A stretch of DNA of 11,255 bases, taken from positions 1 through 11,255 of IMG/VR virus record IMGVR_UViG_2541047875_000011; one strand, written 5' to 3'. The notes beneath the pieces are model-generated. The model ran no database searches and was not told where the DNA came from. It saw only the letters and a list, made by a program, of their open reading frames with translations. Made by a program: the position numbers and the translations under genes. Positions 1 through 7,905 of this stretch are shown piece after piece. Positions within the stretch are counted from its first letter, which is position 1; every line of letters begins with the position of its first letter. This stretch comes from a virus (taxonomy: Duplodnaviria; Heunggongvirae; Uroviricota; Caudoviricetes).

Positions 1-2208
1 CGTTACGGTCGTAACGTCACGAAGATGGATGCCTTTGGCTGTACCAGTCGGGGGCAGGCACACCGCGCCGGGCTGTGGCTGATTAAAACGGAGCTGCTGG
101 AAACGCAGACCGTGGACTTCAGCGTGGGTGCAGAAGGGCTTCGCCATGTACCGGGCGATGTCATTGAAATCTGCGATGATGACTATGCGGGGATCAGCAT
201 CGGCGGGCGCGTGCTGGCGGTGAACAGCCAGGCGCGGACACTGACGCTCGACCGTGAAATCACGCTGCCATCCTCCGGCACCACGCTGATAAGCCTGGTT
301 GACGGAAATGGCAATCCGGTCAGCGTGGAGGTCCAGTCCGTCACCGACGGCGTGAAGGTGAAAGTTAGCCGTGTTCCTGACGGCGTTGCCGGATACAGCG
401 TGTGGGGGCTGAAGCTGCCGACGCTGCGCCAGCGCCTGTTCCGCTGCGTGAGTATCCGTGAGAACGACGACGGCACGTATGCCATCACTGCCGTGCAGCA
501 TGTACCGGAAAAAGAAGCCATCGTGGATAACGGGGCGCACTTTGACGGCGACCAGAGCGGCACGGTGAATGGTGTCACGCCGCCAGCGGTGCAGCACCTG
601 ACCGCCGAAGTCACCGCAGACAGCGGGGAATATCAGGTGCTGGCGCGCTGGGACACGCCGAAGGTGGTGAAGGGCGTGAGCTTCCTGCTCCGTCTGACCG
701 TAACAGCGGATGACGGCAGTGAGCGGCTGGTCAGCACGGCCCGGACGACGGAAACCACATACCGATTCACGCAACTGGCGCTGGGGAACTACAGGCTGAC
801 AGTCCGGGCGGTAAATGCGTGGGGGCAGCAGGGCGATCCGGCGTCGGTATCGTTCCGGATTGCCGCACCGGCAGCACCGTCGAGGATTGAGCTGACGCCG
901 GGCTATTTTCAGATAACCGCCACGCCGCATCTTGCCGTTTATGACCCGACGGTACAGTTTGAGTTCTGGTTCTCGGAAAAGCGGATTACCGATATCAGGC
1001 AGGTTGAAACCACAGCCCGCTATCTTGGTACGGCGCTGTACTGGATAGCCGCCAGTATCAATATCAAACCGGGCCATGATTATTACTTTTATATCCGCAG
1101 TGTGAACACCGTTGGCAAATCGGCATTCGTGGAGGCTGTTGGTCAGCCGAGTGATGATCCATCCGGCTATCTGGATTTTTTCAAAGGAGAGATAGGGAAA
1201 ACCCATCTGGCTCAGGAGCTGTGGACGCAGATTGATAACAGTCAGCTTGCGCCTGACCTGGCTGAAATCAGGACGTCCATTACGGGTGTCAGCAATGAAA
1301 TCACGCAGACTGTCAATAAGACACTGGAAGACCAGAGTGCAGCGATCCAGCAGATACAGAAGGTTCAGGTTGATACCAGTAATGACCTGAACAGCATGTG
1401 GGCTGTGAAGCTGCAACAGATGAAGGACGGACGCCTTTATATCGCGGGTATTGGTGCCGGTATTGGGAACACCCCCGACGGCATGCAGAGTCAGGTGCTG
1501 CTGGCGGCAGACAGGATTGCGATGATTAATCCTGCAAATGGCAACACAAAGCCGATGTTTGTGGGGCAGGGCGATCAGATATTCATGAACGACGTGTTCC
1601 TGAAATATCTGACGGCTCCCACCATTACCAGTGGTGGTAATCCTCCGGCATTTTCCCTGACACCGGACGGGCGGCTGACGGCGAAAAATGCGGATATCAG
1701 CGGTAACGTGAACGCGAACTCCGGGACGCTCAACAATGTCACGATTAATCAGAACTGCCGGATTCTGGGAAAACTGTCAGCCAATCAGATTGAAGGCGAT
1801 CTCGTTAAAACAGTGGGCAAAGCTTTCCCGCGGGACTCCCGTGCACCGGAGCGGTGGCCATCAGGGACCATTACCGTCAGGATTTATGACGATCAGCCGT
1901 TTGACCGGCAGATTGTTATTCCGGCGGTGGCTTTCCGCGGTGCCAGACATGAGCGGGAGAATAGCGATACTTATTCGTCATGCCGTCTGATAGTGAAGAA
2001 AAACGGTGCTGAAATTTATAACCGAACGGCTCTGGATAATACGCTGATTTACACGGGTGTTATTGATATGCCTGCAGGCAGTGGCGTAATGACACTGGAG
2101 TTTTCTGTATCAGCATGGTGGGTAAATGGCTGGTATCCCACAGCGAGTATCAGCGATTTGCTGGTTGTTGTGATGAAGAAATCCACTGCAGGCATCACGA
2201 TTAGCTGA
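1..2208 (+). CDS. J: Tail tip / host specificity protein J, C-terminal ~735 codons; 5' end lies upstream of the window
   Basis: Frame 1 is open from base 1 (the track's Met at 25 is internal) to TGA at 2206-2208. Fibronectin-III-like segments (e.g. [22 protein letters not shown]) and a C-terminal region typical of lambda gpJ. Followed by a terminator, lom and stf in the lambda gene order. Confidence 0.88.
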
Positions 2209-2896: not shown

Positions 2897-2924
2897 AGCC
2901 CGCCGGTTCAGGCGGGCTTTTTTG
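2897..2924 (+). terminator. Rho-independent terminator downstream of lom
   Basis: Stem AGCCCGCC (2897-2904) / GGCGGGCT (2911-2918), loop GGTTCA, followed by TTTTTT (2919-2924). Confidence 0.8.
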
Positions 2925-2934
2925 TGGGGTGAAT

Positions 2935-5289
2935 ATGGCAGTAAAGATTTCAGGTGTACTGAAAGATGGTGCAGGTAAGCCGGTACAAAACTGCACTATT
3001 CAACTGAAAGCCAGACGTAACAGCACCACGGTGGTGGTGAACACGGTGGCCTCAGAAAATCCGGATGAAGCAGGTCGTTACAGCATGGATGTTGAGTACG
3101 GTCAGTACAGCGTCAGTCTGTTGGTGGAGGGGTTCCCGCCGTCACATGCCGGGACCATCACCGTCTATGAAGATTCCCGACCCGGTACGCTGAATGATTT
3201 TCTCGGTGCCATGACGGAGGATGATGCCCGTCCGGAGGCACTGCGGCGTTTTGAACTGATGGTGGAAGAAGCGGCACGTAACGCTGAAGCCGCCTCTAAG
3301 AGCGCAGCGGCGGCAAAGAAATCCGAAACTGCAGCGGCATCATCGAAGAACGCGGCGAAAACCTCAGAAACGAATGCAGCTAATAGTGCACAGGCGGCAG
3401 CGACCTCACAGACTGCATCAGCAAACTCCGCGACAGCAGCCAAAAAATCAGAAACCAACGCGAAAAACAGCGAGACAGCCGCAAAGACGAGTGAAACTAA
3501 CGCAAAGTCCAGCCAGACGGCAGCGAAGACCAGCGAAACGAATGCCAAAGCCAGTGAAACTGCGGCGAAAAGCAGTCAGGATGCAGCAGCCGAAAGCGAG
3601 AGTGCTGCAGCCGGTTCTGCGACTTCAGCAGCTGGATCAGCAACTGCTGCGGCTAACAGCCAGAAAGCCGCGAAGACGAGCGAAACTAACGCAAAGTCCA
3701 GCCAGACGGCAGCGAAGACCAGCGAAACGAATGCCAAAGCCAGCGAAACTGCGGCGAAAAACAGTCAGGATGCAGCAGCCCAAAGCGAGAGTGCCGCAGC
3801 TGGTTCTGCAACAGCGGCAGCTAATAGCCAAAAAGCTGCAAAAACCAGTGAAACTAACGCAAAGACGAGTGAAACAAAAGCAGCAGCCAGCGAGACAGAA
3901 GCAACGTCAGCCGCAACAAGAGCAGAGAATGCAGCCCGGATTGCAGAAGATGCCGCTGATCCTGCTTCTGTCCCTCCGCTTCCTGATATCTGGCTACCCT
4001 TGAATGATTCTCTGGAAGCGATAACAGGGTATGCCCCGGGCTATAAAACAATAACCATCGGCAGTGATGAAATAACAATGCCTGTTAATGGCATATGCCA
4101 ATTTAGCCGGGCTTCATCTGCAACGTATATTGATAAGTCCGGGCATATTACCGTGGCAGGGAATAACGTTCCTCGTTTTGAAAAATATGGTTTGCTGATA
4201 GAGAATCAGCGAACAAACATGTTCGTAAATAGTTTTAATCCTGATGCCTGGAATAAAAGCGGTGGTATATCTGTAACATCATCAACAGATGAATTTGAGT
4301 TTAAATATGGACGTTTCACGGTAGGAAGCGATATAGCAGGAACGACAACAGGGCGAAATATATGCACAGTTGCTGGTAACAAAGGCATAGATGTGACTGG
4401 CGATGATCAGTACAGTAAAGGTCCGTATGTTACCGCGTCGTTCAGGGTAAGAAGTGATCTCAATGTTCGCGCACGTATCCGTTTTGAACGGTATAACTCG
4501 GAAGGATACACCTTCCTTTGCGACGCCTATTTGTCATTACAGACCCATGAACTACAAATTACTGGTGGCAATGCCCAGCTATTAACAGCAAACTTTGAAA
4601 TCGATCCAGGTAGTGGATGGATATATTTTCAGGCAACACTGAAATGTCTGCCAGAATGGGGAATGGTTGGTACGCAGCTGCAAATTGCAGCCGACAGAGC
4701 AGTGGGGGCTTTTGCAACAGGTGACTGGATAGAAGTAACCACCCCGCAATTCGAGTATGGTGCCTGTGCAACTTCCTTTATCATAACGACAACAGAGCCA
4801 GCGACTCGTGCATCAGATTTATGTAAATTTCCGCTGATGAAAAATATGTATACCATGCCTTTTACGTTCATGGTGGAAGTCCATAAAAACTGGTTTATTT
4901 CTCATAATGCTGCACCGCGTGTCATTGATTCAGAAAATCACCAGTCCGGAGGCCCATTTATTATGGGGTTTGGTTCTTCTGGAACTATCAGTCAGGATGG
5001 TTATTCGTATTGCGATATAGGCGGGGCTAACCGGCGTGTATATGAGTCATGCGGAGTAAGAGATCTCGTTATGGGATTCAGGGTTAAGGCTGACGGCATG
5101 ACATGCTCATTTGCAAATAAGAATATAAGCACTGAAACCAAAACAGTATGGAAATATATTCGTGAAGCAGCCGTGATTCGTATCGGGGGGCAAACGACGA
5201 CAGGATTACGACACCTTAATGGTCATATAAAAAACCTCCGTTTCTGGAACAGAGCATTGTCAGATACGCAGATTAAGGAATACGTATAA
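2935..5289 (+). CDS. stf: Side tail fibre protein, mosaic: lambda Stf-like N-terminal anchor, Ala/Ser/Thr/Lys repeat shaft, and a divergent low-GC C-terminal module ending in a LamG/ConA-like motif
   Basis: The track ORF starts at GTG 2929, but ATG 2935 gives MAVKISGVLKDGAGKPVQNCTIQLKA, matching the lambda/Rac Stf N-terminus, with SD GGGGTG upstream. The middle has KTSETNAKSSQTAAK-type repeats as in StfR. After ~3955 the sequence is unrelated and AT-richer, ending ...LNGHIKNLRFWNRALSDTQIKEYV, which resembles the last strand of LamG-type jelly-roll domains. Stop TAA at 5287-5289. Confidence 0.85.
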   Translation: MAVKISGVLKDGAGKPVQNCTIQLKARRNSTTVVVNTVASENPDEAGRYSMDVEYGQYSVSLLVEGFPPSHAGTITVYEDSRPGTLNDFLGAMTEDDARPEALRRFELMVEEAARNAEAASKSAAAAKKSETAAASSKNAAKTSETNAANSAQAAATSQTASANSATAAKKSETNAKNSETAAKTSETNAKSSQTAAKTSETNAKASETAAKSSQDAAAESESAAAGSATSAAGSATAAANSQKAAKTSETNAKSSQTAAKTSETNAKASETAAKNSQDAAAQSESAAAGSATAAANSQKAAKTSETNAKTSETKAAASETEATSAATRAENAARIAEDAADPASVPPLPDIWLPLNDSLEAITGYAPGYKTITIGSDEITMPVNGICQFSRASSATYIDKSGHITVAGNNVPRFEKYGLLIENQRTNMFVNSFNPDAWNKSGGISVTSSTDEFEFKYGRFTVGSDIAGTTTGRNICTVAGNKGIDVTGDDQYSKGPYVTASFRVRSDLNVRARIRFERYNSEGYTFLCDAYLSLQTHELQITGGNAQLLTANFEIDPGSGWIYFQATLKCLPEWGMVGTQLQIAADRAVGAFATGDWIEVTTPQFEYGACATSFIITTTEPATRASDLCKFPLMKNMYTMPFTFMVEVHKNWFISHNAAPRVIDSENHQSGGPFIMGFGSSGTISQDGYSYCDIGGANRRVYESCGVRDLVMGFRVKADGMTCSFANKNISTETKTVWKYIREAAVIRIGGQTTTGLRHLNGHIKNLRFWNRALSDTQIKEYV
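3478..3865 (+). repeat. Tandem direct repeat (~189 bp and ~168 bp units, about 2 copies plus degenerate shorter units) inside the stf shaft region
   Basis: The string GAAACTAACGCAAAGTCCAGCCAGACGGCAGCGAAGACCAGCGAAACGAATGCCAAAGCCAG occurs near 3493 and again near 3682 with few mismatches; copy 2 lacks a 21-nt segment. Degenerate 15-18-nt units (AAxACxAGxGAAAC) extend over about 3290-3900. Confidence 0.8.
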
Positions 5290-5558
5290 TGCGGGATATA
5301 ACATTACGATTCGATAACAGAGAACAGTTTAACGCAATTGTATATGACAGTGGCCTGTTCAGTCTTGAAGAAGAAAATGGGATTCTTGTTGATGTTATTG
5401 GCGGCATTATTGATTACGAGGAGCCAGAAAACGAAAGATGTACAGGCATTGATCGCGGTGGTTTTTTCGTAAACATGAGGATTGTTGATGGCAGTAAAAA
5501 CATATCTTCTTTAATGCCTTTCATTACGACAGATCAGCATGTAAGGACATGGGCTTAA
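5289..5558 (+). CDS. Small acidic hypothetical protein (89 aa), translationally coupled to stf; possible fibre-associated chaperone or accessory protein
   Basis: ATG 5289-5291 overlaps the stf stop as TAATG. SD-like AAGGAA at 5275-5280. Low-GC and acidic (many D/E). Function is inferred from position only. Confidence 0.5.
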   Translation: MRDITLRFDNREQFNAIVYDSGLFSLEEENGILVDVIGGIIDYEEPENERCTGIDRGGFFVNMRIVDGSKNISSLMPFITTDQHVRTWA

Positions 5559-5684
5559 TGGAGCTTGCTTGTTCAGGTAGCCAGAGAATCAGACGACAGA
5601 ATAACAGCACTGGAAGAAGAAAACGCAGAATTAAGACAAAGATTATCTGCAATTGAGGCGGCGCTTGCGTCTGAATAATATTAA

Positions 5685-5707
5685 GGGGCCGAGCGCCCCG
5701 TTTTATT
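5685..5707 (+). terminator. Candidate rho-independent terminator
   Basis: Stem GGGGC (5685-5689) / GCCCC (5695-5699), loop CGAGC, then GTTTTATT. Confidence 0.55.
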
Positions 5708-5720
5708 GGGTAGGATGAAA

Positions 5721-6014
5721 ATGGATATAACACCTTTCCTTCATGCACTTTGTGCTGTGGCTGCGCAGGTACTGATTGGCCTTTTTACCGGAAACTGGGT
5801 TTACGGTGCGATAGCTGGTTGTACGTTCTTCATTGCGCGGGAACACACCCAGGCAGAATATCGCTGGATTGAAATGTTCGGGCATGGCAAGCGAATGAAT
5901 ATGCCGTGGTGGGGCGGTTTTGATCCGCGTGCTTGGGATGTGGCAAGCCTGATGGATTTTGCTGTGCCGGTGGTGGCGTGTCTGCTGGTCTGGCTGTTGG
6001 TTAATCGTGGGTGA
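5721..6014 (+). CDS. Hypothetical small membrane protein (~97 aa, two predicted transmembrane helices); moron-like
   Basis: ATG 5721 with AGGA 5 nt upstream (the track extends it to TTG 5706). Two hydrophobic stretches, FLHALCAVAAQVLIGLFTGNWVYGAIAGCTFFIA and SLMDFAVPVVACLLVWLLV. Preceded by a terminator and a possible sigma70 promoter (TTGAGG 5653-5658, 17-bp spacer, TAATAT 5676-5681). Confidence 0.55.
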   Translation: MDITPFLHALCAVAAQVLIGLFTGNWVYGAIAGCTFFIAREHTQAEYRWIEMFGHGKRMNMPWWGGFDPRAWDVASLMDFAVPVVACLLVWLLVNRG

Positions 6015-6024
6015 AAAAAGGTGA

Positions 6025-6146
6025 GCTGTATATGCAACGGAGGAAGAAACCCCGTTGCTGGCGGCATGGAAGAAGTATCGGGTGCTGCTCAACCGAACTA
6101 TACATCAGTAGCTCCGGACATTGAGTGGCCTGTACAACCGGAATAA
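6025..6146 (+). pseudogene. tfa: Remnant of the 3' end of a tail fibre assembly gene (tfa), frameshifted; N-terminal ~150 codons absent
   Basis: Frame 1 (6025-6111) reads AVYATEEETPLLAAWKKYRVLLNRTIHQ*, matching the conserved lambda Tfa C-terminal motif ...EETSLLEAWKKYRVLLNRVD. Frame 3 (6093-6146) then reads PNYTSVAPDIEWPVQPE*, matching Tfa ...TSTAPDIEWPAVPVME*. A 1-nt frame change lies near 6096-6099. No upstream tfa reading frame exists. Confidence 0.65.
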
Positions 6147-6168
6147 ATATCAGGAGGAGTAATTAATC

Positions 6169-7304
6169 GTGTCGACTCTGATTTCCGGCGTATTAAAAGA
6201 TGGTGCAGGTATACCGCTGGCTGCCAGATTATCCTGAAATCCCGTGTAAACACCTCAGATGTGGTGATGTCTGTTGTTGCGCATATTGTAACCGGGCAAA
6301 ACGGGGAATATGCGTTTGAGGCCCGGACGGGGAAGTACAGCGTTTATCTGAAGACTGACTGGCGTAATGAGTTTCAGGTTGGTGTTATTTCTGTTTATGA
6401 GGACTCACAACCGGGCACACTGAACGACTTCCTGATAGCAGTGAGTGATGCTGATTTGAAGCCGGACGTTCTGCGGCGGTTCGATGAGCTGGCGAGGCGT
6501 GTCCATGAAGACGCGAACAGCGCAGAACAGTTTGCCGGAGATGCCCGTCGTGCTGTGGATGAACTGGGCGGTAAGGTTCAGGACGATATTCGTGACCGTA
6601 CACCGGACCGTCTGGCTCTGCCCGGTGCTTACGGCTTCGGCGGAATATTCAGCCGCTCGGAAGCTCTGTCGTTTCAGGGGGTATCTGATTTTGGTGCGTG
6701 GCTACAGAAAGCCACGCCGGGGCGTTATCCGGTCACTGTTGCGGATTCTTCTGCATTGCTGTTGGGCACCACGAAATTTAACGGCAACATTGATGTGCTG
6801 TGGTCACCCTTTGATAACGACGGGTCGGACACAGCGCACAAATTCAAAACGCTGTTGTGTTACAACGAGCCACGTGCCGGAGAGCACGGGCTACACCTGC
6901 TCCAGTACTGGTACGAGGGCGACAACCTGCGGGTTGCGGGCAGTATGATAGTCTGCGACGCTCCGTCGCTGGCGACACTGCTGTCAGCAACAGCGGGAGC
7001 GGACCCGTCAGGGTTCTACCGTTATCCGGCGGTGGGTTCCCTGTTGCTGGCAGCGTACCACGGGGCATCTGCCGGTGCTGGCGGGGTGAGTATTGCAACA
7101 GGCGACGTTGTTCCGGGCTCCTGTCTGGGGCCGGTGAGTATTCCGTGCGCGGTGAACGAAGGCGGCACAACTCCGTCGCCGCTGCGGGCGTTTGTTGGTG
7201 GTGCCGGACAGTACAATTTCCCCGGACGTTACCAGGCGTTATCCGGTGCAAATAATGTCCGTGGAAACAATGGGTTTATCTGTCTGTTTGTGCGCGTTGA
7301 GTAG
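6169..7304 (+). pseudogene. Second side tail fibre gene with a frameshift in the N-terminal anchor region; likely decayed, or expressed from an internal start
   Basis: SD AGGAGG (6152-6157). A GTG at 6169 opens frame 1, giving VSTLISGVLKDGAGIPLA and then a stop at 6235-6237; this parallels Stf MAVKISGVLKDGAGKPV. Frame 3 continues ...CQIILKSRVNTSDVV... (parallel to CTIQLKARRNSTTVV) through to TAG at 7302-7304. It also contains a shared VYEDSQPGTLNDFL motif. The frame change is near 6219-6225, with no homopolymer or slippery heptamer. Confidence 0.6.
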
Positions 7305-7311
7305 GTGAGAA

Positions 7312-7905
7312 ATGAACGCAGTAAAAGATATTCGCAATCCGGTGCATCTCGGAAACGGCGCGGTTGACTGTGAGGTGCTGTTTGAGGGGCGCAGCGAGTA
7401 CGTTGTTTATACGGCTGCGCCGGGCGACGCAGCCCCGACAGGTCAGCGTATCTGGCAGGAACTACAGAGCGGCAAATGGGGCGAAATTGCCCCGTTCACG
7501 GCCACGCCGGAACTGATAGCGGCGGCGAAGGATGCAAAACGTCAGGAAATTGAGGTGTGGCGTACCGAACAGGAAGCGCAGTCGTTCACGTTTGAGTGGA
7601 ACGGTCGAACCTGGAACGCGGGGCCGTCCTCACTGGCCCGGCTCACGCCTGCGATTACGGCGGCGGAATACGCCGGCGAGCAGGCTGTTACCTGGAGCGA
7701 TACAACCAACGAGCCGGTAAACCTGACAGTGCAGGAACTGAAATCGCTGGCCGTCGCACTGGCTCAGGCACTCTCTGAGCGGAACAACGCGATTTATCGT
7801 CGCCAGCGGGAGATGAAGGATACGTTAAACACCCTGGAGAATCTGGCAGAGGTGCAGGCGTTTAAGGTTGGAGAACAATCTATATTGGGGGTAAGCCGTA
7901 TTTAG
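7312..7905 (+). CDS. Hypothetical protein (197 aa) immediately downstream of the second fibre gene; possible fibre assembly or chaperone-like protein, family not confidently recognised
   Basis: ATG 7312 with SD GGTGAG 4-5 nt upstream. Its C-terminus lacks the Tfa LL.EAW..YRVLLNRVD motif, so it is not a classical Tfa. The assignment is positional. Confidence 0.45.

What the first reader, a model, noticed from the sequence alone, without database searches (positions are those of the whole stretch)
5289..5678. Acidic small ORF coupled to stf, continuing in frame across a TAA into a leucine-zipper-like segment
The 89-aa ORF starts at the TAATG overlap with stf. Its TAA at 5556-5558 is followed in the same frame by 40 sense codons encoding ...QVARESDDRITALEEENAELRQRLSAIEAALASE (heptad-like coiled-coil character), ending at TAA 5676-5678 just before a terminator hairpin. 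This is either a ~129-aa gene broken by one nonsense mutation, or two tiny genes (the second would need a TTG start at 5565), or a chaperone-like protein. Small helical proteins such as T4 gp57A assist fibre folding, but that is an analogy only, not a homology claim.
Basis: partly seen in the sequence, partly recalled or inferred. Interest (0 to 1): 0.55.

Follow-up and report, generated by a model that had tools for sequence, protein, structure and literature searches.

The report
Tail-fibre gene remnant after small ORF
The small acidic ORF is a complete, conserved phage gene that always follows this type of side tail fibre, and the "leucine-zipper" stretch after its stop codon is the last 37 codons of a second tail-fibre gene lost to a 933-bp deletion, so this is an ordinary prophage scar rather than a broken or read-through gene.

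Summary
An 89-aa acidic ORF (5289-5558) overlaps the stf stop in TAATG. Its TAA is followed in frame by 39 sense codons with a clean heptad pattern, a TAA (5676-5678) and a terminator hairpin.

All 62 viral-contig homologues of the small ORF end at the same ...R-x-W-x-stop position, and some have two stops in a row. The TAA is therefore ancestral, not a nonsense mutation.

In related phages (PhiR11_1, Tritos, PhiR46_1) a 346-aa distal fibre gene starts 12 nt downstream in the same frame. It belongs to phrog_4563 and carries a Peptidase_S74 intramolecular-chaperone domain. Its last 37 residues match the window's coiled-coil segment.

The window matches PhiR11_1 up to base 5563 and again from base 5563. 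The gap is a 933-bp (311-codon) deletion with 1 nt of microhomology. It removed the start codon and codons 1-308 and kept the orphan GGAG.

RefSeq already annotates 5565-5678 as a pseudogene missing its N-terminus. The deletion occurs in 8 of 5426 complete E. coli genomes; 195 carry the intact pair.

The 89-aa gene (phrog_1361, function unknown) co-varies with the lectin-like C-terminal domain of the fibre in lambdoid, T5-like, Seuratvirus and Warwickvirus phages. Interest is low.

The parts
2935..5289 (+). stf, the proximal side tail fibre (784 aa from ATG 2935; the ORF opens at GTG 2929). It has a lambda-Stf-type N-terminus, 7-aa repeats, a GTA-spike-fibre domain and a ConA/LamG-like C-terminal domain.
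   Evidence: PF08400 matches aa 1-131 at E 4e-70 and phrog_1419 matches full length. NF048003 matches aa 421-626. Laminin_G_3 matches the last 49 aa below threshold. Residues 130-784 are 45% identical to IrisVonRoten Gp22.
5287..5291 (+). TAATG stop/start overlap between stf and the small ORF (translational coupling).
   Evidence: Read directly in the sequence. The same 1- or 4-nt overlap is seen in 15 of the 24 homologous loci examined; 9 have a 9-10-nt gap instead.
5289..5558 (+). Complete 89-aa acidic gene of family phrog_1361 (function unknown), a partner of the fibre's C-terminal domain.
   Evidence: phrog_1361 matches positions 1-92 of 92 at E 1e-29. There is no Pfam, NCBIfam or PADLOC hit. 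The stop is conserved in 62 of 62 homologues. The gene always follows a fibre gene with a homologous C-terminal 160 aa.
5560..5563 (+). Orphan GGAG Shine-Dalgarno of the deleted distal fibre gene.
   Evidence: In PhiR11_1 the sequence reads TAATGGAGTAAGACAATG, placing GGAG 7 nt before the ATG of the 346-aa gene.
5563..5564 (.). Deletion junction. 933 bp (311 codons) are missing relative to PhiR11_1, with 1 nt (G) of microhomology.
   Evidence: Window 2918-5563 aligns to L004 1219-3864, and window 5563-5999 aligns to L004 4797-5233. The junction was read base by base.
5565..5678 (+). Pseudogene remnant: the last 37 codons plus stop of a 346-aa distal tail fibre gene, corresponding to the C-terminal coiled-coil helix of its Peptidase_S74 intramolecular chaperone domain.
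   Evidence: phrog_4563 positions 309-345 of 346, E 8e-16. The segment is near-identical to the C-termini of the PhiR11_1, Tritos and PhiR46_1 346-aa proteins. PGAP annotates it as a pseudogene 'tail fiber domain-containing protein, missing N-terminus'.
5558..5656 (+). 32-aa basic ORF (pI 11.9) created by the deletion, in the +2 frame and TAATG-coupled to the 89-aa ORF. It is probably meaningless.
   Evidence: In intact relatives this ATG opens only a 2-codon ORF (ATG GAG TAA).
5685..5707 (+). Intrinsic terminator-like hairpin with a T-run. It is the terminator of the former distal fibre gene.
   Evidence: It is conserved together with the 3' end of the 346-aa gene in Tritos, HannyBb and 2G7b.
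5721..6014 (+). 97-aa hydrophobic protein gene (phrog_1443), the conserved downstream boundary of the fibre cassette.
   Evidence: phrog_1443 at E 7e-59. It follows the distal fibre in Tritos and PhiR11_1. It follows the small ORF directly in Lambda_2E9 and L066.

Best explanation
The region holds one intact gene and one deletion scar.

The intact gene is the 89-aa ORF (5289-5558). It is a complete, conserved phage gene of family phrog_1361 and is translationally coupled to stf. It travels with the ConA/LamG-like (galectin-like) C-terminal domain of a proximal tail fibre. I infer that it is an accessory protein of that fibre end, either an assembly factor or a small structural subunit that binds the lectin-like domain. 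That step is inferred, not shown.

The scar is the in-frame 'leucine zipper' at 5559-5678. It is the 3' end of the next gene of the ancestral three-gene module: proximal fibre, small protein, distal fibre. That next gene encoded a 346-aa distal fibre whose C-terminus is a self-cleaving Peptidase_S74 intramolecular chaperone domain ending in a coiled-coil helix. One illegitimate deletion of 933 bp (1 nt of microhomology) removed its start codon and codons 1-308. The deletion left the GGAG ribosome-binding site, the last 37 codons, the stop and the terminator.

The apparent reading-frame continuity has a simple cause. In intact relatives the two genes lie in the same frame, 12 nt apart, and the deletion length is a multiple of three. 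The remnant is most likely not translated into anything functional.
For: Deletion. Window and PhiR11_1 are collinear up to window 5563 (L004 3864) and again from window 5563 (L004 4797), at 96-97% identity on both sides. The junction was read base by base. The 39-aa segment matches phrog_4563 positions 309-345 of 346 at E 8e-16. The intact 346-aa protein carries PF13884 Peptidase_S74 at aa 227-278, E 2.7e-13, and aligns weakly with the S16 gp37 chain in PDB 6f45, including the terminal helix. PGAP independently calls 5565-5678 a pseudogene missing its N-terminus in three genomes.

Rarity. 8 of 5426 complete E. coli genomes carry the deleted form; the three I inspected (A24, KC-Dl-1, GN05064) have it at the same dusA site. 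195 genomes carry the intact two-gene unit. Among IMG/VR loci of the 89-aa class, 27 of 28 have a fibre gene 12 nt downstream in frame 0.

The stop is ancestral. 62 of 62 homologues end at the same place, and two classes have double stops.

The small ORF is tied to the fibre's C-terminal domain. In 24 of 24 diverse loci the upstream gene's last ~160 aa are homologous (31-100% identity, with the end motif HLxGHxxNxRxW..L.D.Q), while the N-terminal parts differ. The small ORF persists where no distal fibre exists: Lambda_2E9, L066 and the 88-aa class, where a terminator follows it directly. The same three-gene order occurs in T5-like IrisVonRoten (gp22-23-24) and SP15, Seuratvirus VogelGryff and Warwickvirus tonn, with measurable homology for IrisVonRoten and VogelGryff. 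PMC11990801 models Gp24 as a distal fibre with an IMC attached to proximal fibre Gp22, which has a galectin-like C-terminal domain.
Against: The exact parental sequence is not in hand. The left flank is closest to PhiR11_1 (99.2%) and the right flank to Tritos/HannyBb (98.5%), so a recombination between two phages rather than an in-situ deletion cannot be strictly excluded. Both give the same product.

No expression data exist here, so I cannot prove the remnant is untranslated.
Confidence: 0.9

Rival explanations
1. A single ~129-aa gene inactivated by a nonsense mutation at 5556-5558, or expressed through programmed read-through of the TAA.
For: The two segments are in the same frame with only one stop between them. 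In intact relatives the small ORF and the next gene are also in one frame, 9-12 nt apart.
Against: All 62 homologues stop at the homologous codon (TAA or TGA). L067 and the 88-aa class have two consecutive stops. The downstream segment belongs to another gene family, phrog_4563 positions 309-345. The stop context is TAA-T, the most efficient termination context in E. coli (established knowledge). No Rfam element or recoding signal lies in 5000-6300 apart from a partial IS009 hit elsewhere in that stretch.
Confidence: 0.02
2. The remnant is a functional mini-gene. Either the 37-aa coiled-coil peptide from TTG 5565, or the new 32-aa basic ORF from ATG 5558, is translated by coupling to the 89-aa ORF and has acquired a role, for example interfering with trimerisation of incoming phages' S74 fibres.
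For: GGAG is retained at 5560-5563. The ATG at 5558 overlaps the TAA as TAATG. The remnant shows almost no decay: it is 98.5% identical to intact alleles. The arrangement is carried in strains from whale, armadillo and human hosts.
Against: The TTG lies 1 nt after GGAG, which is unsuitable spacing. The arrangement is found in only 8 of 5426 genomes and in one IMG/VR contig. The junction is identical in all eight genomes, and the three inspected carry the same dusA prophage, which points to a single recent event and so explains the lack of decay. No comparable free-standing gene appears in any other locus. There are no PADLOC hits.
Confidence: 0.04
3. The 89-aa protein is the connector onto which the distal fibre's conserved N-terminus (MVTKTVIP.DI..LK) docks, making it a branch or joint adaptor rather than a partner of the lectin-like domain as such.
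For: It sits between the proximal and distal fibre genes in lambdoid, T5-like, Seuratvirus and Warwickvirus phages. Distal fibres with unrelated receptor-binding parts share the N-terminal ~17 residues. GenBank labels IrisVonRoten gp23 'tail fiber protein'.
Against: The small ORF is retained in phages with no distal fibre at all: Lambda_2E9, L066, and the 88-aa class where a terminator follows directly. Its sequence co-varies with the upstream fibre's C-terminus, whereas one and the same small ORF (96-98% identical) is followed by different distal fibres of 346, 227 or 234 aa.
Confidence: 0.25

Closest known systems
stf / small ORF / 346-aa fibre / 97-aa gene module of lambdoid phages PhiR11_1 (PV340547), Tritos (OV696610) and PhiR46_1 (PV340565)
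   Same: Same gene order, the same TAATG coupling, and an 89-aa protein 98% identical (PhiR11_1). The last 37 aa of the 346-aa protein are identical to the window segment except for the first and last residues. The terminator and the 97-aa gene are also the same.
   Different: The window lacks 933 bp: the start codon and codons 1-308 of the 346-aa gene.
Lateral tail fibre locus gp22-gp23-gp24 of T5-like phage IrisVonRoten (Bas32), described in PMC11990801
   Same: A proximal fibre with a galectin-like C-terminal domain (45% identity to window Stf aa 130-784), a small protein (34% identity to the 89-aa ORF), and a distal fibre with the same N-terminal motif and a C-terminal intramolecular chaperone.
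   Different: A different virus family (Demerecviridae) and a different tail anchor. The distal fibre is a 574-aa T-shaped dual-RBD protein. The paper does not discuss the small protein. In the window the distal fibre is deleted.
C-terminal intramolecular chaperone domain (Peptidase_S74, PF13884) of endosialidases, T5 pb1 and S16 gp37
   Same: The intact 346-aa relative has the S74 core (E 2.7e-13) with an S-D-R-D-L-K-D-N-I motif, followed by a C-terminal amphipathic helix. The window's heptad segment is that helix.
   Different: The window keeps only the terminal helix. The catalytic core and the whole fibre are gone, so it cannot act as an S74 domain.
Branched lateral tail fibres LtfA/LtfB of T5-like phage DT57C (PMC4728585, PMC10713586)
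   Same: The concept of a second fibre protein that attaches to the virion through the first fibre rather than to the tail.
   Different: The papers list only LtfA, LtfB and LtfC as lateral-fibre components, with no small protein like this one. I did not test sequence homology.
T4 gp57A and lambda/Mu Tfa tail fibre assembly chaperones
   Same: Small genes next to fibre genes.
   Different: The 89-aa protein has no Pfam, NCBIfam or PHROG link to Tfa families. Its AF2 model is alpha/beta, not a helical coiled coil.

Membership tests
phrog_1361 (small protein downstream of LamG-tipped fibres; unknown function), for ORF 5289-5558 | Full-length match to the family profile | tested here: met
   E 1.2e-29, residues 1-89 against profile positions 1-92 of 92.
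phrog_1361 (small protein downstream of LamG-tipped fibres; unknown function), for ORF 5289-5558 | Position directly after a fibre gene with the homologous C-terminal domain, and termination at ...R-x-W-x-stop | tested here: met
   24 of 24 loci for the upstream domain. 62 of 62 loci for the stop.
phrog_4563 / Peptidase_S74 (PF13884) fibre with intramolecular chaperone, for segment 5565-5678 | S74 core with the serine-lysine autoproteolysis motif | tested here: not met
   It is present in the intact relative (aa 227-278, E 2.7e-13). It lies inside the 933 bp missing from the window.
phrog_4563 / Peptidase_S74 (PF13884) fibre with intramolecular chaperone, for segment 5565-5678 | C-terminal amphipathic (coiled-coil) helix of the chaperone domain | tested here: met
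   Matches profile positions 309-345 of 346, E 8e-16. The heptad register places 7 of 9 a/d positions on hydrophobic or Asn residues.
phrog_4563 / Peptidase_S74 (PF13884) fibre with intramolecular chaperone, for segment 5565-5678 | Intact gene with a start codon and an N-terminal docking motif (MVTKTVIP...) | tested here: not met
   The start and codons 1-308 are deleted. Only a TTG 1 nt after GGAG remains.
Gene interrupted by a nonsense mutation, or programmed stop-codon read-through | Relatives carry a sense codon at the position, or the downstream part is conserved as the C-terminus of the same protein | tested here: not met
   0 of 62 homologues read through; some have double stops.
Tail fibre assembly chaperones (lambda Tfa / Caudo_TAP, DUF4376, T4 gp57A) | Sequence-family match, or for gp57A a small all-helical coiled-coil protein | tested here: not met
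   No Pfam, NCBIfam or PHROG match to those families. The AF2 model is beta-alpha-beta4-alpha.
Anti-phage defence or superinfection-exclusion cargo | Match to a known defence protein family | tested here: not met
   PADLOC gave 0 families for the 89-aa, 97-aa and 32-aa products.

The most novel reading that the evidence does not exclude
The uncharacterised 88-93-aa family (phrog_1361) is an obligatory partner of galectin/LamG-tipped proximal tail fibres. It is found in at least 163 phage records, including lambdoid, T5-like, Seuratvirus and Warwickvirus phages. It would be a previously unrecognised small fibre subunit: either a chaperone of a new kind, or the joint that lets interchangeable distal fibres, which share an MVTKTVIP.DI..LK N-terminus, plug onto the same proximal fibre. 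The window would then be a natural 'distal-fibre-less' variant of that system.
Probability: 0.3. Interest if true: 0.45.

Novelty: already known. Interest (0 to 1): 0.15.

Why it matters
The case shows how in-frame continuity across a stop codon can arise trivially in mosaic phage tail-fibre regions. Two adjacent genes happened to share a frame, and a deletion of a multiple of three bases joined them. The practical value is correct annotation: an intact gene, then a pseudogene remnant.

The by-product is of more interest. The small ORF belongs to a widespread but unstudied family that is strictly linked to lectin-tipped proximal fibres, in a three-gene module with an exchangeable distal fibre. 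That is relevant to engineering the host range of lambda-derived and T5-like vectors.

Tried and rejected
- The search for homologous proteins with the 89-aa protein returned only 4 truncated or frameshifted fragments.
- The exhaustive HMMER search gave 8 hits. Only P0007 (88 aa, 39% identity) and the truncated fragments P0001 and P0003 are genuine relatives. P0005 is a frameshifted translation. The hits to giant repetitive HYR, cadherin and Big_13 proteins look like summed weak matches to repeats, and I did not use them.
- The search for related loci in genome contigs found nothing. Viral contigs gave 62 loci.
- Single-sequence AF2 of the Stf C-terminal 220 aa failed (pLDDT 33). The lectin-like assignment therefore rests on a sub-threshold Laminin_G_3 hit, homology to IrisVonRoten Gp22 and that paper's description.
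- Literature searches found no paper that discusses the small protein.
- Read-through or recoding was rejected on the comparative evidence.
- A defence role was rejected after the PADLOC search.
Full report
**Observation.** The stf ORF ends at TAA 5287-5289. This stop overlaps the ATG at 5289-5291 (TAATG) of an 89-aa ORF that ends at TAA 5556-5558. The product is acidic: pI 4.4, with 16 D+E against 8 K+R. After the TAA the same frame stays open for 39 codons, WSLLVQVARESDDRITALEEENAELRQRLSAIEAALASE, up to TAA 5676-5678. A terminator-like hairpin follows at 5685-5699, then a T-run. The heptad character is real: in one register 7 of 9 a/d positions are L/I/V/M/N, and the other registers score 0 to 4. 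A stop-free run of that length has a chance probability of about 0.08 at this composition.

**Where the window comes from.** It is the right end of a lambdoid prophage of E. coli integrated next to dusA. The gene order is J, lom, stf, the small ORF, several fibre-gene fragments, a second short fibre cassette, int, then dusA and pspG. Over the rest of the window it is almost identical to strains A24, KC-Dl-1 and GN05064. The differences cluster in gpJ.

**What the downstream segment is.** A 561-nt query across the finding splits exactly at window base 5563.
- The left part (stf 3' end plus the small ORF) matches PhiR11_1 at 99.2%.
- The right part (the coiled-coil segment, the terminator and the start of the next gene) matches Tritos, HannyBb and 2G7b at 97.5-98.5%. 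There it is the 3' end of an annotated tail fibre gene.

In PhiR11_1, Tritos and PhiR46_1 the order is stf, small ORF (89 or 93 aa), a 346-aa fibre gene, then a 95-97-aa gene. Pairwise comparison gives window 2918-5563 = L004 1219-3864 and window 5563-5999 = L004 4797-5233. So 933 bp (311 codons) present in PhiR11_1 are absent from the window. The two breakpoints share a single G.

The missing piece begins just after the GGAG that serves as the ribosome-binding site of the 346-aa gene (TAATGGAG|TAAGACAATG...). It ends inside codon 309. What remains is the last 37 codons, the stop and the terminator. The 346-aa protein ends ...YYTVDYSGVTGLLVQVARESDDRITALEEENAELRQRLSAIEAALASK. The window segment matches positions 309-345 of the 346-position profile phrog_4563 ('tail fiber protein') at E 8e-16.

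The intact protein has a Peptidase_S74 domain ('chaperone of endosialidase', PF13884) at aa 227-278, E 2.7e-13, preceded by the motif TSDRDLKDNI. It aligns weakly (E 0.013) with the S16 gp37 chain in PDB 6f45, through to the terminal helix. From established knowledge of this family, the domain is a self-cleaving intramolecular chaperone. The window's 'leucine zipper' is therefore the terminal helix of that domain. NCBI's pipeline reached the same conclusion: in A24, KC-Dl-1 and GN05064 the interval corresponding to 5565-5678 is a pseudogene, 'tail fiber domain-containing protein, incomplete, missing N-terminus'.

**Why it is in frame.** In all 27 intact IMG/VR loci of the 89-aa class the fibre gene starts 12 nt after the small ORF's stop, in the same frame. 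The deletion length is a multiple of three. Frame continuity is thus an accident of geometry, not a sign of a single gene.

**Is the TAA a mutation?** No. I collected 62 viral-contig loci encoding relatives of the small ORF, at 31-100% identity. Every one ends at the homologous ...R-x-W-A/M/S codon followed by TAA or TGA. L067 and the 88-aa class have two consecutive in-frame stops.

**How common is the deletion?** 8 of 5426 complete E. coli genomes carry the deleted arrangement, with an identical junction; the three I inspected have it at the same dusA site. 195 genomes carry the intact unit of small ORF plus 346-aa gene at 80% coverage or more. One of the 28 IMG/VR loci of the 89-aa class (L006, 99.4% identical to the window) has the deletion. 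This looks like a single recent event, which fits the almost undecayed remnant.

**Can the remnant be expressed?** The only in-frame start is TTG 5565, 1 nt after GGAG, which is an unsuitable spacing. The deletion also joined the ATG at 5558 to the +2 frame of the remnant. In intact phages that ATG opens a 2-codon ORF (ATG GAG TAA). In the window it gives a 32-aa, very basic ORF (pI 11.9) that overlaps the small ORF's stop in TAATG. Neither product has any comparative support and neither hits a defence family. I rate a function for either at a few per cent.

**The 89-aa gene.**
- It is a full-length member of phrog_1361, function unknown, with no Pfam, NCBIfam or PADLOC match.
- Comparative anatomy is more informative. 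In 24 of 24 diverse loci the gene directly upstream is a fibre gene whose last ~160 residues are homologous to the Stf C-terminus. Identity falls to 31-57% in distant members, and the end motif is HLxGHxxNxRxW..L.D.Q. The N-terminal parts and lengths (about 550 to 1331 aa) differ.
- That C-terminus gives a sub-threshold Laminin_G_3 (ConA-like lectin) match.
- tblastn finds the small gene in 163 phage records: lambdoid phages, T5-like phages (IrisVonRoten, SP15), Seuratvirus (VogelGryff), Warwickvirus (tonn) and others.
- Window Stf aa 130-784 is 45% identical to IrisVonRoten Gp22. The 89-aa protein is 34% identical to Gp23. The N-terminal 17 residues of the 346-aa fibre are 70% identical to those of Gp24.
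- PMC11990801 models Gp24 as a distal fibre with an intramolecular chaperone, attached to the proximal fibre Gp22, whose C-terminus carries a galectin-like domain. It does not discuss Gp23.

The distal fibre is an exchangeable and dispensable cassette. The same small ORF (96-98% identical) is followed by fibres of 346, 227, 234 or 363 aa that share only the N-terminus MVTKTVIP.DI..LK. The lambdoid phage record Lambda_2E9 and locus L066 go straight from the small ORF to the 97-aa gene. In the 88-aa class a terminator follows the small ORF.

The small gene therefore tracks the lectin-like end of the proximal fibre, not the distal fibre. I infer that it is an accessory protein (assembly factor or small subunit) of that fibre end. 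The adaptor-for-distal-fibre reading remains a live rival at about 0.25.

**Verdict.** The finding is a correct observation with an ordinary explanation: an intact conserved small phage gene followed by the 3' scar of a deleted tail-fibre gene, already annotated as such in RefSeq. The only open point is the function of the phrog_1361 family, which the tools here could not resolve.

Noticed in passing
window 3410-3917: stf contains about 12 overlapping copies of a 21-nt (7-aa) repeat and a 189-nt tandem duplication (3410-3598 and 3599-3787, 84% identical). This is the repetitive shaft of the fibre.
   Followed up: partly
window 2935-5289 (L001 3736-6090): The stf ORF is uninterrupted (784/786 aa) in the window and in strain A24. 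RefSeq/PGAP nevertheless splits it into two partial features: 'missing C-terminus' and 'missing N-terminus' in A24, and a partial plus a 403-aa CDS in KC-Dl-1 and GN05064. This is probably an annotation artefact.
   Followed up: partly
window 6012-6109 (+): Partial Rfam match to IS009 (RF02111): 49 bits against a gathering score of 117, E 5.5e-10. It lies just after the 97-aa gene and overlaps a tail-fibre-assembly pseudogene fragment (6034-6146 in PGAP coordinates).
   Followed up: no
window 6261-7905: A second, short fibre cassette: a 347-aa 'prophage tail fiber N-terminal domain' protein plus a 197-aa DUF4376 (Tfa-like) protein, between the fibre debris and int. Together with the tfa fragment, this makes the 3' end of the tail region a stack of recombination leftovers.
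   Followed up: no
window 5558-5656 (+): The deletion created a new 32-aa, highly basic ORF (MELACSGSQRIRRQNNSTGRRKRRIKTKIICN, pI 11.9) whose ATG overlaps the 89-aa ORF's stop (TAATG). In intact phages the same ATG opens only ATG-GAG-TAA.
   Followed up: partly
L004 3872-3940; L002 4372-4440; L068 5289-5340; L053-L065: Distal fibres with unrelated receptor-binding parts (346, 227, 234, 330-340 and 574 aa) in lambdoid and T5-like phages share an N-terminal motif M-[VA]-T-x-T-[VT]-I-P-x-D-I-x-x-L-K. It is probably the docking element onto the proximal fibre.
   Followed up: partly
window 5721-6014; L072 3792-4085; L066: A 97-aa hydrophobic protein (phrog_1443, no Pfam, NCBIfam or PADLOC hit) is the constant downstream neighbour of the fibre cassette, whether or not a distal fibre is present. 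Its function is unknown.
   Followed up: no
window 48-1050 (gpJ): Nearly all differences between the window and the otherwise identical prophages of A24, KC-Dl-1 and GN05064 cluster in the first kilobase (inside gpJ). This suggests a recombination patch there.
   Followed up: no
L007 (IMGVR_UViG_2585427745_000003), downstream fibre gene: One relative has a 363-aa version of the distal fibre whose C-terminus diverges after ...QRLSAIE (ending ...GKRKLTAVCSHQTRIGNLDAHLI). This is another rearrangement inside the same terminal helix, and the window matches it only up to base 5658.
   Followed up: no
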